Assembly (NCBI GenBank): GCA_036397395.1
Contig: DASWIZ010000038.1
Span: 1 to 31,601, forward strand
Origin: Minisyncoccota bacterium
GTDB taxonomy: Bacteria > Patescibacteriota > Minisyncoccia > Minisyncoccales > UBA10102
DNA: 31,601 bases
Reading direction: 5' to 3'
Shown here: piece by piece, positions 5,989 to 24,066 of the stretch
Numbering within the stretch: position 1 is the first letter of the stretch
Layout of the letters: each line of letters opens with the position of its first letter
Translations under genes and position numbers: made by a program
The notes under the pieces: generated by a model
Told to the model about the DNA's origin: nothing
What the model saw: only the letters and a program-made list of their open reading frames with translations
Databases searched by the model: none

Positions 5989-6582
5989 ATGCAGGTCACA
6001 GTCGGATCACAACGAAAACAATTTCACATTCCTGGTTGGTCCCTTATCCTTTTTGCCATAGTGGCAATCCTGGGTGCTGCGTATGGCGGCATGCAGCTTA
6101 CTCCTCTTTTTGAGAGCGCCATTGCTGCTGACACGCAGCAGACCACAAACCTAGCTCCCGAGGTAGCCCCGGCACCCCAAACCCAACTGGAGCAGTCCGT
6201 CCCGCCAGTATCTGTGCCGGCAAACCGGTCCACCTCGAGGATCGAGGTTCAACAACCGGTATTCCAGGGACGCCCTGCCCCCAGTGCGGCCTTTCCGCAA
6301 CCCGATGGTTACTACATCGGACTTGGGAAGAGCGCATTCGGAAATCCAAATGTGCGCGGGTATGGCACGGTACTGGAATATTTTGGGGATGTTAATGTTC
6401 TGGCTGTTGAAGAGGTAAAAATGCAAGACCTCGGTTTCAATAGTGTGAGCCAAACTAATATGCTCAAGATTCAATATCTGGTTAAAGCCAATGGACGCGT
6501 CAAAAGCTACGTCGTAACTATCAGGAGCACTCAAGCTGGCGTATGGGTTGACCATGTAGGCCCCGGGCAACTCACGCTATAA
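5989..6582 (+). CDS. Membrane-anchored secreted protein (N-terminal TM, ~155-aa extracytoplasmic domain). Possibly a VirB8-like component, which is speculative.
   Basis: Strong SD ggaggtgg 9 nt upstream of the ATG. TM segment SLILFAIVAILGAAYGG. Followed by the terminator hairpin at 6608-6635. Confidence 0.5.
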   Translation: MQVTVGSQRKQFHIPGWSLILFAIVAILGAAYGGMQLTPLFESAIAADTQQTTNLAPEVAPAPQTQLEQSVPPVSVPANRSTSRIEVQQPVFQGRPAPSAAFPQPDGYYIGLGKSAFGNPNVRGYGTVLEYFGDVNVLAVEEVKMQDLGFNSVSQTNMLKIQYLVKANGRVKSYVVTIRSTQAGVWVDHVGPGQLTL

Positions 6583-6607
6583 CCTGACAATAGCAATCCT
6601 TAACCCC

Positions 6608-6635
6608 AAGAGGCCAACCCACAAGTTGGCCTCTT
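6608..6635 (+). terminator. Rho-independent terminator
   Basis: aagaggccaac-ccacaa-gttggcctctt, followed by the T-rich run tacttttac. Confidence 0.6.
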
Positions 6636-6687
6636 TACTTTTACATATATTCTTGTGTTTCTTTTGAGAGATGTTTATAATTATATA

Positions 6688-22019: not shown

Positions 22020-22262
22020 ATGATTCGTACACAAATTTACATTCCAAAATACACTCACGATCGTCTTGTACAGCTTGCTCGAGCAAGAAAAGAAGCATTG
22101 GCAAAAATTGTGCGAGAATTTATTGAGGCGGGAATCGAAAAAAGTCCGTTGGATCAATCTGGCAAAACTAATCTTCAGGAACTTATACGTCTTAACTTCC
22201 GGGGCGGACCAAAAGATTTGTCCACAAACCTGAATCGGTATTTGTATGGCGGACGTCAATGA
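22020..22262 (+). CDS. RHH-type antitoxin (VapB-like)
   Basis: TQIYIPKYTHDRLVQLARARKEALAKIVREFIE. It overlaps the downstream PIN gene by 17 nt. Confidence 0.45.
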   Translation: MIRTQIYIPKYTHDRLVQLARARKEALAKIVREFIEAGIEKSPLDQSGKTNLQELIRLNFRGGPKDLSTNLNRYLYGGRQ

Positions 22263-22713
22263 CGGGGAGGGTCTTATATCCACTGTTTTCGTGGATTCTG
22301 ACGCATTTGTAGCTTTTGTAAAGGGAGACGATTCGAACCATGCTCGCGCTGTCAAAATATTCGAGAAACTCAAAACGCAGCACGTGAAATTTCTTACATC
22401 GAACTACGTGTTTGCAGAAACAGTTACGGTTATCAGCCAACAGGTGGGACGAGAGCAAGCCTTTTCGTTTATACGGGCAGTTAAGAACATTGAAGCTCCG
22501 TTTCCATACAGATGGGTTGATAGTGATATTGAAGAGCTTGCGCTTGAAATTTTTGGTAGTCAAACATCGAAAAACGTAAGTTTCGTTGATTGCACAAACA
22601 TTGCAATCATTCGAAAAGACGCTCTCGATGCTATTTTTAGTTTTGATGCTGTGTATCGCAAAAATGGCATTCGATATGGCGAAGAATTGGTTGCACACAA
22701 GTTAGGGAATTGA
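22246..22713 (+). CDS. PIN-domain toxin (VapC-like)
   Basis: VFVDSDAFVAF (Asp box), FAETVTV (Glu), SFVDCTNIAI (Asp). It is 155 aa. Confidence 0.55.
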   Translation: MADVNDGEGLISTVFVDSDAFVAFVKGDDSNHARAVKIFEKLKTQHVKFLTSNYVFAETVTVISQQVGREQAFSFIRAVKNIEAPFPYRWVDSDIEELALEIFGSQTSKNVSFVDCTNIAIIRKDALDAIFSFDAVYRKNGIRYGEELVAHKLGN

Positions 22714-22725
22714 TACAATATAGTA

Positions 22726-24066
22726 ATGATAAAAAAGATTTTGTTTGTTTTTGTACTACTCGCCGTTGTTGCCCCGATTTTCGCATTCGCCCAAATCAAC
22801 CTGAACCTGGATTACCCCACGTTCGGCGGCGTAGACCTGAACACCAACCAGAACCTAAACACCGTTGTCGCCTGGCTGTACTATTTCTTTGTGGGCATCG
22901 CCGGCCTTGCAGCTTTTGTCATGATCGTGTGGGGAGGCATACAGTGGTTAACCTCGGGAGCCATCCCATCCCAAGCTTCTGAAGCCCGCGACAAACTGCG
23001 AGCCGCCATACTGGGACTTCTTCTTGTTTTAGCCTCGTTCCTTATCATACAGGTCATAAACCCCCAGCTTACCCTGTTAAACCAGCCCGGCCTAACCCAG
23101 TTCTTTGGCACAAACCCAACCCTTGACCTCCCAAGCTCCGGCGGCGGAGGATTTAGCGGCCCTGCCGGAGTAACAGCTCCTGGCATATACCTCTGTAGAG
23201 ATATTAACTGTACTTGCACAAATCCGGGCAACTGTGAAGAAGCAGTAGACTTTAACAACCCCATAAATCCTGGAGGGAACGACTATGTATACATTGACCC
23301 CGCAGCATTTCCTGGCGGAGCAATCTTTGACCTTGATAATTCAGCTCCTATATTAAACTGGGGAGATGAAGTAAGCGCTATTGGTATTATCGGCAACTCG
23401 GCGGTTCGCGCGAACAGAGACCAAAACTTTACAGCCATGGGTATTTGTTTTAACGGCGGAGTCGCAGATCTTAAAAAGTATCTTATGCAGGAAGATGTCT
23501 TTTTTATGGATGATGACTGGAATGACGCAATACACAGTATAGCTTTTTTCCCTCTGGGAACTCCAAATGGATGTCAAGACCCTAATCTTACCTTAGATAA
23601 GGATGCTCCGACTCCAGGAGTATCACACTTTCGACCCCAGCCAGCAGTATACCTTATCAATAAAACAGGATACGGAACAAGTGGTAATCCGCATTGGACT
23701 CCAGTTAATTACTACTGGCCAAACAGTACGGCTGATAGATTCAACCCTACACATAATAGTATTGACTGGCCGTCCCAATACAACTCTGTCGAACTTTCTG
23801 TATGGATAACCAGTGCTTCTGTCTGCGGTTCTGCAGGAAACGAAACATGTGCGGTAAAGTTCTATGAAGACACCGACATTATTACATCAGACACGGCTCC
23901 CGACTCTACTCACCAGACTATTTGTTTTAACCAATCAATGCCAGATCTTCTATTGTATACACTCCCACCCGCCCCAGACCTTCACCAGTCAGGGGTTGTA
24001 AAACAAGTTCGAGCCATACCGGCTTCTCAATGCCCACCCGCTATACACGCCCAAGTACAAGGCTAA
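22726..24066 (+). CDS. Secreted protein with an N-terminal VirB2/TrbC-pilin-like domain (signal peptide plus two TM helices) fused to a ~330-aa Cys-containing extracellular domain
   Basis: Signal peptide MIKKILFVFVLLAVVAPIFAFAQ. Two helices follow (VVAWLYYFFVGIAGLAAFVMIVWGGIQWL and ILGLLLVLASFLIIQVI). The C-terminal domain has at least 10 Cys and N/P/T-rich loops. Confidence 0.45.
   Translation: MIKKILFVFVLLAVVAPIFAFAQINLNLDYPTFGGVDLNTNQNLNTVVAWLYYFFVGIAGLAAFVMIVWGGIQWLTSGAIPSQASEARDKLRAAILGLLLVLASFLIIQVINPQLTLLNQPGLTQFFGTNPTLDLPSSGGGGFSGPAGVTAPGIYLCRDINCTCTNPGNCEEAVDFNNPINPGGNDYVYIDPAAFPGGAIFDLDNSAPILNWGDEVSAIGIIGNSAVRANRDQNFTAMGICFNGGVADLKKYLMQEDVFFMDDDWNDAIHSIAFFPLGTPNGCQDPNLTLDKDAPTPGVSHFRPQPAVYLINKTGYGTSGNPHWTPVNYYWPNSTADRFNPTHNSIDWPSQYNSVELSVWITSASVCGSAGNETCAVKFYEDTDIITSDTAPDSTHQTICFNQSMPDLLLYTLPPAPDLHQSGVVKQVRAIPASQCPPAIHAQVQG

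What the first reader, a model, noticed from the sequence alone, without database searches (positions are those of the whole stretch)
5989..24066. T4SS-like core (VirB6-like, VirB3-like, VirB4) embedded among surface-protein and TA genes, without obvious relaxase or coupling protein
The window contains VirB4, a VirB3-like gene directly upstream, a VirB6/TrbL-like polytopic protein and pilin-like proteins. I see no VirD4-type coupling protein, relaxase, VirB11, or VirB9/10 homologues. This minimal repertoire, plus large surface proteins, matches the reduced T4SS-like systems of CPR-type or monoderm-like bacteria. Those may act in DNA uptake or host-cell interaction rather than classical conjugation.
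Basis: partly seen in the sequence, partly recalled or inferred. Interest (0 to 1): 0.55.

Follow-up and report, generated by a model that had tools for sequence, protein, structure and literature searches.

The report
Patescibacterial type IV secretion gene cluster
This is the chromosomal type IV secretion gene cluster typical of ultra-small Patescibacteria (CPR) bacteria, a kind of system described in 2023-2025; this copy is ordinary except for an intein in its ATPase gene and several inserted toxin-antitoxin genes.

Summary
The window is a complete 31.6-kb contig of a Candidatus Paceibacterota MAG. It carries VirB6/TrbL (6655-8790), PrgI/VirB3-like (13187-13606), VirB4 (14797-18711) and VirB2-like pilin-domain proteins (22726-24066, plus the C-terminus of 968-4084).

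No relaxase, coupling protein, VirB11 or VirB9/10 is present. Every ORF was profile-searched, and the largest unassigned gap is 313 nt.

This is one more member of the Patescibacteria T4SS clade derived from monoderm MPF_FATA systems.

Corrections:
- The gene directly upstream of virB4 is a TrsD-like protein, equivalent to the N-terminal piece of full-length VirB4. The VirB3-like gene lies two genes upstream.
- Across 80 related genomes the conserved order is pilin-VirB6-o187-VirB3-TrsD-VirB4-o301-pilin. Here strain-variable toxin-antitoxin and nuclease genes stretch it out.
- Absence of a coupling protein is shown only for this contig.

Function is inferred, not shown: most likely a non-conjugative, pilus-building machine for host contact.

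Minor leads: two uncharacterised conserved families (o187, o301) and a recurrent opposite-strand SPFH gene.

The parts
968..4084 (+). 1038-aa Gly-rich/PKD surface protein with an N-terminal signal/TM segment and a C-terminal T4SS pilin-like domain (residues 938-1024). It lies outside the finding's coordinates.
   Evidence: ALK_LTK_GRD E=2e-8 and PKD E=2e-7. The C-terminus hits PF18895 at E=0.0026, below threshold. A lineage-specific pilin-domain HMM gives E=2e-20. TM segments at 965-1021.
5989..6582 (+). 197-aa single-TM protein of unknown function just upstream of virB6. It is not a conserved component.
   Evidence: No Pfam or NCBIfam hit. One TM segment. A homologue occurs in only 1 of 80 related loci.
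6655..8790 (+). VirB6/TrbL-like polytopic membrane protein with a ~370-aa hydrophilic C-terminal extension. The public gene call starts at 6688.
   Evidence: PF04610 E=7e-9, above gathering. About 7 hydrophobic segments. Present upstream of virB4 on the same strand in 37 of 80 loci.
8849..10495 (-). SPFH/Band 7 membrane-scaffold protein (9149-10495) plus a small 94-aa membrane ORF (8849-9133), on the opposite strand between virB6 and o187.
   Evidence: PF01145 E=9e-7. An SPFH gene sits in the same slot and orientation in 10 of 35 loci that have both B6 and o187, and in strain L088.
10574..12563 (+). Strain-variable cargo: PBECR3 nuclease, an 87-aa ORF plus a truncated PIN (97 aa), and DUF5678 plus a retropepsin-like aspartyl protease.
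   Evidence: Pfam. Found in 0-1 of 80 related loci. The whole block is missing from the 93-96%-identical strain L088.
12633..13187 (+). o187 family: a soluble helical protein with a disordered acidic tail ending in an invariant D-x-Y-R-E motif. It is a conserved partner just upstream of the VirB3-like gene, and its function is unknown.
   Evidence: Present in 43 of 80 loci, always on the same strand upstream of PrgI. Alignment. No Pfam, NCBIfam or PDB match. AF2 gives a 6-helix domain at pLDDT ~90, and Foldseek finds nothing in the PDB.
13187..13606 (+). PrgI family (VirB3-like) membrane protein with 2 TM segments.
   Evidence: PF12666 E=0.003 for this protein alone, but 42 of 42 family members hit it. 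Present in 70 of 80 loci at about -760 nt from virB4.
13652..14059 (+). PD-(D/E)XK nuclease family gene (PDDEXK_3) inserted between the VirB3-like and TrsD-like genes; variable cargo.
   Evidence: PF13366 E=8e-31. Found in 3 of 80 loci. In L088 and L020 a PDDEXK_3 gene sits in a different slot, between TrsD and VirB4.
14090..14782 (+). TrsD-like protein, the counterpart of the N-terminal ~100-200 positions of full-length monoderm VirB4. It is soluble and lies directly upstream of virB4.
   Evidence: NF045975 positions 116-213 of 894, E=6e-8; NF045971 positions 11-102 of 752, E=4e-5; NF041427 TrsD E=0.007. Precomputed PF26593 TraC-like hit. A separate ~214-aa ORF in 73 of 80 loci. Not a paralogue of the VirB4 N-domain encoded here.
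14797..18711 (+). VirB4 ATPase gene. The exteins are 14797-15573 and 17575-18711 (637 aa after splicing). The public gene call starts at 14833.
   Evidence: NF045971 358.7 bits against a cut-off of 325. PDB 4ag5 E=1e-35. Intein-free homologues at 98-70% identity.
15574..17574 (+). 667-aa intein with a LAGLIDADG homing-endonuclease domain, inserted in Walker A (GSGK|S...VHN|S).
   Evidence: Intein_splicing E=1e-19 and LAGLIDADG_3 E=3e-22. TIGR01445 and TIGR01443. The predicted splice product reproduces the FATSGSGKSYAVKLE sequence of intein-free alleles. The same site is occupied in L086 and in about 20 other VirB4 clusters.
18715..20169 (+). Cargo: a DUF3800 protein and a 209-aa ORF of unknown function, inserted between virB4 and o301.
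   Evidence: PF12686. Found in 0 of 80 related loci.
20218..21123 (+). o301 family: a small membrane protein that normally lies immediately downstream of virB4. This copy carries a ~170-aa charged N-terminal extension. Function unknown.
   Evidence: An iterated HMM finds it in 40 of 80 loci, typically 0-40 nt after the virB4 stop codon (one at 2.2 kb). Alignment. No Pfam hit, and it is not PrgI-like.
21250..22713 (+). Two VapBC-type (PIN) toxin-antitoxin pairs; cargo.
   Evidence: PIN E=2e-15 and 1e-9. Found in 0 of 80 related loci.
22726..24066 (+). 446-aa protein: signal peptide, then a VirB2-like T4SS pilin domain (residues 42-111, a helical hairpin), then a 330-aa Cys-containing beta-rich extracellular domain.
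   Evidence: PF18895 E=1e-9. NF045849 Mycoplasma ICE pilin-like E=2e-6. Pilin-domain genes occur in 58 of 80 loci. The AF2 model (pLDDT 61) shows a helical hairpin and gives weak betagamma-crystallin-like matches.

Best explanation
This is the chromosomal, vertically conserved type IV secretion locus of a Paceibacteria-class Patescibacterium. It belongs to the Patescibacteria VirB4 clade, which derives from monoderm MPF_FATA conjugation machinery.

Shown here:
- The locus encodes a two-gene VirB4: a TrsD-like N-terminal piece plus a 637-aa ATPase.
- It also encodes a PrgI/VirB3-like protein, a VirB6/TrbL protein, and two proteins carrying VirB2-like pilin domains fused to large extracellular domains.
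- These genes follow the order found in about 70 related species-level genomes.
- Strain-variable toxin-antitoxin and nuclease genes and a homing intein have inserted into this order.
- The contig has no relaxase, T4CP, VirB11 or outer-membrane components.

Inferred mechanism:
- The intein splices out of VirB4 and restores the Walker A motif.
- The VirB4 hexamer, complemented by TrsD, docks on a VirB3/VirB6 membrane platform. An SPFH scaffold and the o187 and o301 proteins may assist.
- ATP hydrolysis then drives extraction and assembly of the pilin-domain proteins into a surface filament or display structure.
- That structure carries adhesin-like passenger domains that contact the host bacterium, possibly with protein export.
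- It does not carry out relaxase-dependent conjugation.
For: - Component identities.
- Taxonomy and nearest relatives.
- Conserved order pilin-B6-o187-B3-TrsD-B4-o301-pilin across 80 loci, with TA and nuclease genes in only 0-3 of them.
- The closely related strain L088 lacks the intein and most of the cargo.
- Housekeeping genes (nusA, tig, clpP, rny, tRNAs) lie immediately downstream, and a related contig (L004, identical RNase Y) also has a pilin gene directly upstream of nusA.
- No relaxase or T4CP in any ORF, and no room for a hidden one.
- Exact intein junction and intact splicing blocks.
- Literature: the same repertoire across 2,400+ genomes, with a relaxase in only 103 (PMC12102498). 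The T4SS and pilins are essential for epibiotic growth, and comEC is dispensable for viability (PMC10633639 and PMC12857230).
Against: - Function is inferred only from homology and from experiments in a distant class (Saccharimonadia). Nothing here shows a pilus, a substrate or a host.
- No VirB8-like or VirB1-like component was found.
- The rest of the genome, where a VirD4-like protein probably exists according to the literature, could not be examined.
- Intein splicing competence is predicted, not tested.
- The PrgI assignment for this protein alone is below Pfam's threshold.
Confidence: 0.8

Rival explanations
1. It is the mating-pair-formation module of a conjugative or mobilisable element (ICE). 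The relaxase and coupling protein would be encoded elsewhere in the genome and act in trans.
For: The VirB4 is closest to conjugative MPF_FATA families: CD1110 and the Mycoplasma ICE VirB4. VirD4-like genes occur elsewhere in most Patescibacteria genomes, and 103 genomes do carry relaxases. The locus is full of mobile-looking cargo.
Against: There is no integrase, relaxase or T4CP on the contig. The gene order is conserved across about 70 species-level genomes next to housekeeping genes, which indicates vertical inheritance. The published tree shows class-specific, rarely exchanged VirB4s. The T4CP was not essential in Southlakia, whereas the T4SS was.
Confidence: 0.06
2. It is a DNA-uptake (competence) machine, analogous to Helicobacter ComB or the archaeal Ced system.
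For: T4SS-derived DNA importers exist. There is weak P-loop similarity to CedB and CedD (46 and 22 bits). In the ABY1 class, T4SS loci sit next to comF, recG and radA. These organisms cannot make nucleotides.
Against: The CedB score is far below its cut-off (46 against 700). No competence genes are in the window. In Southlakia, natural transformation depends on comEC. Deleting comEC abolished competence but not viability, whereas the T4SS is essential.
Confidence: 0.1
3. The locus is a decaying, non-functional remnant, disrupted by an intein and by selfish gene insertions.
For: Five or more insertions separate the core genes. One PIN gene is truncated (97 aa) and MntA lacks a HepT partner. VirB4 is interrupted in its catalytic P-loop.
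Against: All core ORFs are full length, and all insertions are intergenic. The VirB4 extein is 98% identical to an intein-free allele, with Walker A restored exactly on splicing. The intein keeps Ser1, the TxxH block, the terminal HN and the +1 Ser. The same intein site is occupied in about 20 other VirB4 clusters, so it is tolerated.
Confidence: 0.04

Closest known systems
Patescibacteria-clade T4SS (Quinonero-Coronel et al. 2025, PMC12102498; Southlakia epibionticum SEML1_0006-0019, Wang et al. 2023, PMC10633639)
   Same: It has a short VirB4 with an adjacent TrsD, a PrgI/VirB3, a VirB6 and PF18895 VirB2-like pilins near virB4. There is no nearby relaxase or T4CP, and no VirB7/9/10/11. It is chromosomal and the organism is a monoderm.
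   Different: It is from the Paceibacteria class rather than Saccharimonadia. VirB4 carries a P-loop intein. TA and nuclease cargo is interspersed within the operon. The pilin domains are fused to large passenger domains rather than forming an array of small pilins. The locus sits next to nusA/tig/clpP rather than dnaA. It has the o187 and o301 families and an SPFH gene, which the paper's text does not mention.
Conjugative MPF_FATA T4SS of monoderms (pCF10 Prg/Pcf, pGO1 Trs, CTn/CD1110, Mycoplasma ICE Mbov_0395/0397)
   Same: The VirB4 passes the CD1110-family cut-off. TrsD-like, PrgI-like and VirB6-like components are present. The pilin domain resembles the Mycoplasma ICE pilin-like protein.
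   Different: No relaxase, T4CP (PcfC/TcpA), VirB1-type hydrolase (PrgK/TrsG), recognisable VirB8-like protein (PrgL/TraM) or PrgB-type adhesin was found. It is not on a mobile element.
T4CP-less effector or toxin T4SSs (Bordetella Ptl, Brucella VirB)
   Same: These also work without a dedicated coupling protein or relaxase and are non-conjugative.
   Different: They are diderm MPF_T systems with VirB7-11 and an outer-membrane core complex. The sequences are only distantly related (TrwK E=2e-5).
P-loop inteins of ATPases, including the VirB4 inteins catalogued by Novikova et al. 2016 (PMC4760082)
   Same: It is a class-1 intein with a LAGLIDADG endonuclease inserted in the nucleotide-binding motif of an ATPase. 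VirB4 is already a listed intein host (5 cases).
   Different: The earlier cases were from Firmicutes and Proteobacteria. This one is in a Patescibacteria VirB4 and uses Ser1 with Ser+1.

Membership tests
Patescibacteria-clade T4SS | VirB4 ATPase of MPF_FATA affinity | tested here: met
   The extein scores 358.7 bits on NF045971 (cut-off 325) and E=1e-35 against 4ag5. TrwK reaches only 2e-5.
Patescibacteria-clade T4SS | VirB4 falls inside the monophyletic Patescibacteria clade | tested here: inconclusive
   No tree was built. All 120 best homologues listed, of 8000 scored, are ~545-636-aa proteins at 69-98% identity. The named ones are almost all Wildermuthbacteria, Paceibacterota, Patescibacteria or CPR MAGs. 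The 80 genome loci are almost all Patescibacteria MAGs, though some deposited titles are inconsistent.
Patescibacteria-clade T4SS | TrsD homologue associated with virB4 | tested here: met
   The 14090-14782 protein hits the N-terminal positions of the VirB4 models and the TrsD model. It is adjacent to virB4 in 73 of 80 loci.
Patescibacteria-clade T4SS | VirB3/PrgI homologue near virB4 | tested here: met
   42 of 42 family members hit PF12666. This protein alone gives E=0.003, below gathering.
Patescibacteria-clade T4SS | VirB6 homologue near virB4 | tested here: met
   PF04610 at 36.1 bits, above the gathering score of 25.9.
Patescibacteria-clade T4SS | VirB2-like pilin (PF18895) near virB4 | tested here: met
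   The 22726-24066 protein scores 38.4 bits against a gathering score of 26.6. A second pilin domain lies at the C-terminus of the 968-4084 protein.
Patescibacteria-clade T4SS | No relaxase or T4CP adjacent to virB4; no VirB7/9/10/11 | tested here: met
   All ORFs were scanned with Pfam and the T4SS candidates plus several others with NCBIfam, without such hits. The maximum unassigned gap is 313 nt.
Patescibacteria-clade T4SS | Relaxase and T4CP absent from the whole genome | not testable with these tools
   The window is the entire 31,601-nt contig. The other contigs of the MAG could not be fetched.
Conjugative MPF_FATA T4SS | Relaxase (MOB) and coupling protein encoded with the MPF genes | tested here: not met
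   None is on the contig.
Conjugative MPF_FATA T4SS | VirB1-type cell-wall hydrolase and VirB8-like (NTF2-fold) protein | tested here: inconclusive
   No sequence hit was found.
Class-1 intein with LAGLIDADG homing endonuclease | N- and C-terminal splicing blocks, an endonuclease domain, and an in-frame insertion at a conserved host motif that restores the host sequence | tested here: met
   PF14890, PF14528, TIGR01445 and TIGR01443 all hit. It has Ser1, TxxH, HN and Ser+1. The splice product matches the intein-free alleles.
Class-1 intein with LAGLIDADG homing endonuclease | Protein-splicing and homing activity | not testable with these tools
   This needs expression and splicing assays.
DNA-import T4SS (Ced / ComB) | Membership of CedB/ComB families and linkage to competence genes | tested here: not met
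   CedB scores 46 bits against a cut-off of 700, and CedD 22 against 600. No competence genes are in the window.

The most novel reading that the evidence does not exclude
The o187 protein (helical domain plus an invariant C-terminal D-x-Y-R-E tail), the o301 small membrane protein and the opposite-strand SPFH scaffold may be undescribed, lineage-specific subunits or assembly factors of the Paceibacteria T4SS. They could stand in for the missing VirB8 and coupling functions. The P-loop intein could make VirB4, and so the whole machine, conditionally activatable after translation.
Probability: 0.25. Interest if true: 0.4.

Novelty: new member of a known kind. Interest (0 to 1): 0.22.

Why it matters
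The Patescibacteria T4SS is the first T4SS shown to be essential for its bearer's growth, and its substrate and mechanism are unknown. This locus adds nothing fundamental.

It does give a clean view of the Paceibacteria-class core gene order. It also flags three conserved but unannotated partners (o187, o301, SPFH) as candidates for the missing parts of the machine.

It shows that the operon tolerates repeated intergenic insertion of selfish genes and a homing intein in the catalytic P-loop. That tolerance is useful when defining the minimal gene set, and when annotating VirB4 genes that look twice the normal length.

Tried and rejected
- Extending the contig to look for a relaxase or T4CP failed. 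Public copies are short fragments, and the window is the complete NCBI contig.
- The idea that the 230-aa ORF and VirB4 are one frameshifted gene was rejected. The two-ORF arrangement is conserved in 73 loci.
- The idea that TrsD is a paralogue of the VirB4 N-domain encoded here was rejected. hhalign gives probability 1%. TrsD instead matches the part of full-length VirB4 that the short VirB4 lacks.
- o187 led nowhere: nothing in Pfam, NCBIfam, a PDB profile search or Foldseek.
- o301 led nowhere: nothing in Pfam, and no relation to PrgI.
- PADLOC gave only weak 'candidate system' hits for the cargo genes.
- The pilin446 model is low confidence (pLDDT 61). Its betagamma-crystallin-like matches are only suggestive.
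- Rfam found only the two tRNAs.
- The supplements of PMC12102498 that are held contain no mention of SPFH, intein or PDDEXK_3. They may be incomplete.
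Full report
**What is in the window.**
Translating all plausible ORFs and scanning them with Pfam and NCBIfam gives a dense, mostly plus-strand gene map with 89% of bases assigned. The largest unassigned gap is 313 nt. In order:
- A DUF3800 gene.
- A 1038-aa Gly-rich/PKD surface protein (968-4084).
- A TumE toxin pair and small ORFs.
- A 197-aa bitopic protein (5989-6582).
- VirB6/TrbL (6655-8790).
- An SPFH/Band 7 gene on the opposite strand (9149-10495).
- A cargo block: PBECR3 nuclease, a truncated PIN pair, and DUF5678 with an aspartyl protease.
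- A 184-aa unknown protein, here called o187 (12633-13187).
- A PrgI/VirB3-like gene (13187-13606).
- A PDDEXK_3 nuclease (13652-14059).
- A TrsD-like gene (14090-14782).
- VirB4 (14797-18711).
- DUF3800 and a 209-aa unknown protein.
- A 301-aa membrane protein, here called o301 (20218-21123).
- Two VapBC pairs.
- A 446-aa pilin-domain protein (22726-24066).
- An orphan MntA.
- The housekeeping genes nusA, tig, clpP and rny, a cation-antiporter fragment, two tRNAs, a GIY-YIG gene and a DUF2335 gene.

The exact pilin protein is in NCBI as a hypothetical protein of a 'Candidatus Paceibacterota bacterium' MAG, on a contig of 31,601 nt. The window is therefore the whole contig and has no flanks to inspect.

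**Checking the observation.**
- VirB6/TrbL passes Pfam's gathering score (36.1 against 25.9 bits) and has about seven hydrophobic segments.
- The VirB3-like assignment is weak for this protein alone (PrgI E=0.003). All 42 aligned family members from related loci hit PrgI, best 9e-14.
- VirB4 is secure. After removing the intein, the 637-aa product scores 358.7 bits on the CD1110-family VirB4 model (cut-off 325). It matches the solved Thermoanaerobacter VirB4 domain at 1e-35.
- The pilin domain of the 446-aa protein passes PF18895.
- No ORF hits a relaxase, coupling protein, VirB11, VirB9 or VirB10 family, and there is no room for a hidden one.

Three corrections follow.

**Correction 1: the gene directly upstream of virB4 is TrsD-like, not VirB3-like.**
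The 230-aa protein has no TM segment. It matches positions 116-213 of 894 in the Mycoplasma-ICE VirB4 model (6e-8), positions 11-102 of 752 in the CD1110 VirB4 model (4e-5), and weakly the TrsD model. The VirB4 extein covers positions 183-734 of that same CD1110 model.

A profile-profile comparison of the two finds nothing. They are complementary pieces of a full-length monoderm VirB4, not paralogues. The split is not a frameshift: a separate ~214-aa ORF precedes a ~597-aa VirB4 in 73 of 80 related genomes. The literature describes TrsD as the most abundant T4SS-associated protein in Patescibacteria.

**Correction 2: VirB4 contains an intein.**
A 667-aa insertion (15574-17574) carries intein splicing blocks and two LAGLIDADG motifs. 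It begins with Ser after GSGK and ends in HN followed by Ser. The predicted splice product reads FATSGSGKSYAVKLE, as in the intein-free homologues at 85-98% identity.

- A strain whose virB4 DNA is 93-96% identical lacks the intein.
- One of the 80 genome loci (L086) has a 37%-identical intein at the same site.
- About 20 of the 150 closest intein relatives in a 1.8-billion-protein library are VirB4s interrupted at the same position.

VirB4 is already a catalogued intein host (5 cases from Firmicutes and Proteobacteria; PMC4760082). This is a new member of a known kind, not a new phenomenon.

**Correction 3: the system is larger and more ordered than the finding states.**
I searched one genome per species for VirB4 relatives (80 loci) and mapped window proteins onto them. 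The conserved order is pilin(s) - VirB6 - [gap] - o187 - VirB3 - TrsD - VirB4 - o301 - pilin(s), all on one strand.

| Family | Loci (of 80) |
|---|---|
| TrsD | 73 |
| PrgI/VirB3 | 70 |
| pilin domain | 58 |
| o187 | 43 |
| o301 | 40 |
| VirB6 | 37 |

Many contigs are truncated, so these are minimum counts. The TA, nuclease and DUF3800 genes occur in only 0-3 loci. The close strain L088 lacks the PBECR3/PIN/DUF5678/protease block and has its PDDEXK_3 gene in a different intergenic slot.

The 18-kb span in the finding is thus a compact ~10-kb operon stretched by at least five intergenic insertions of selfish-looking genes. A lineage-specific pilin-domain HMM also hits the C-terminus of the 1038-aa Gly-rich protein (E=2e-20). 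That protein belongs to the system even though it lies outside the finding's coordinates.

**How it most likely works.**
The components and their conserved order are shown. The mechanism is inferred.
- The intein splices out of VirB4 and restores the P-loop.
- The VirB4 hexamer, completed by TrsD, docks on the VirB3/VirB6 membrane platform.
- It energises extraction of pilin-domain proteins from the membrane and their assembly at the cell surface.

The pilin446 model is low confidence overall (pLDDT 61). It shows the expected two-helix hairpin (residues 44-111), followed by a beta-rich domain with weak betagamma-crystallin-like matches. Homologues keep the pilin domain at 55-85% identity but swap the passenger domain: PKD, 'pectate lyase', M23 peptidase, glycoside hydrolase 15. 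This pattern suggests that the pilin module displays or delivers variable adhesive or lytic domains to a host cell.

Experiments in Southlakia support a non-conjugative role. There the T4SS and its pilins are essential for epibiotic growth, no coupling protein or relaxase was recognised, and comEC is dispensable for viability.

**Rival explanations.**
- Conjugation with relaxase and T4CP supplied in trans is unlikely. The locus is chromosomal and conserved in order next to housekeeping genes across many species-level genomes. Relaxases occur in only 103 of 3,035 genomes.
- DNA import has weak support. CedB similarity is far below its cut-off, and competence in Saccharibacteria depends on comEC.
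- A decayed remnant is unlikely. All core ORFs are intact, all insertions are intergenic, and the extein is 98% identical to an intein-free allele.

**Comparison with what is known.**
The locus meets every feature of the published Patescibacteria T4SS that could be tested here (PMC12102498). Formal phylogenetic placement was not done. It fails the defining features of a conjugative MPF_FATA system (relaxase, T4CP), although its parts descend from one.

Features not found in the text or held supplements of that paper:
- The VirB4 intein.
- The o187 family: a 6-helix domain at pLDDT ~90, then a disordered tail ending in an invariant D-x-Y-R-E motif, with no Pfam, PDB or Foldseek match.
- The o301 family.
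- An SPFH gene on the opposite strand in the VirB6|o187 slot, in 10 of 35 loci plus the window and L088.

SPFH proteins and T4SS components co-fractionate in Agrobacterium detergent-resistant membranes, although that association did not depend on the SPFH proteins (PMC8656257). The link to the T4SS here rests on conserved gene position only.

**Verdict.**
This is one more member of a known kind with a few unusual features, so interest is low (0.22). The most novel reading still open is that o187, o301 and SPFH are unrecognised parts of the machine and that the intein gates its activity. I put that at about 0.25 probability, with moderate interest if true.

Noticed in passing
window 15574-17574: A 667-aa LAGLIDADG intein interrupts the Walker A motif of VirB4 (GSGK|S...HN|S). 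Intein-free alleles at 98% protein identity exist. The same site is occupied in L086 and in about 20 other VirB4 clusters.
   Followed up: yes
window 9149-10495 (-); L012, L016, L020, L031, L035, L038, L039, L044, L054, L065, L088: An SPFH/Band 7 gene recurs on the opposite strand in the same slot, between virB6 and o187, in about 30% of related loci. It may be a membrane scaffold for the T4SS. The 2025 survey text does not mention it.
   Followed up: partly
window 12633-13187; alignments A2 and A4: The o187 family is conserved just upstream of the VirB3-like gene in 43 of 80 loci. It has a confident 6-helix domain and a disordered acidic tail ending in an invariant D-x-Y-R-E motif. No known family or fold matches.
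   Followed up: partly
window 20218-21123; alignment A3: The o301 family of small membrane proteins lies immediately downstream of virB4 in 40 of 80 loci. The window copy has an extra ~170-aa Arg/Glu/Gln-rich N-terminal extension. No known family matches.
   Followed up: partly
window 13652-14059; L088 5321-5734; L020; L009; L039: PDDEXK_3 (GxxExxY-type) nuclease genes sit in different intergenic slots of the T4SS operon in different strains (PrgI|TrsD or TrsD|VirB4). This suggests repeated independent insertion of a small mobile gene.
   Followed up: partly
window 22726-24066 and homologues P0154, P0169, P0192, P0204: The N-terminal pilin domain is conserved at 55-85% identity, while the C-terminal passenger domains are swapped between homologues (PKD, 'pectate lyase', Peptidase_M23, Glyco_hydro_15). 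The window protein's C-domain gives weak betagamma-crystallin-like fold matches from a low-confidence model.
   Followed up: partly
window 22726-24066: The pilin domain also hits the NCBIfam model for the Mycoplasma ICE pilin-like protein (Mbov_0395 family, E=2e-6). The TrsD-like protein's best hit is the N-terminus of the Mycoplasma ICE VirB4. This hints that pilin-like proteins already existed in some MPF_FATA systems.
   Followed up: no
window 11627-11920 and 24131-24628: There is a truncated PIN toxin (97 aa) and an MntA antitoxin with no HepT partner nearby. These are signs of decay among the cargo TA modules.
   Followed up: partly
window 286-918 (-) and 18715-19278 (+): The contig holds two divergent DUF3800 genes. 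One is inserted 4 nt after the virB4 stop codon, followed by a 209-aa ORF with no homologue in any of the 80 related loci.
   Followed up: no
window 30254-30738: An 84-aa stand-alone GIY-YIG nuclease gene sits between tRNA-Pro and tRNA-Gly.
   Followed up: no
window 15544-15604 vs L088 ~6530-6590: The intein-free allele in strain L088 differs from the window at several synonymous positions right around the insertion site (…ACAAGCGGATCAGGAAAATCT… versus …ACATCGGGAAGCGGCAAA|TCG…). These changes might affect recognition by the homing endonuclease.
   Followed up: no
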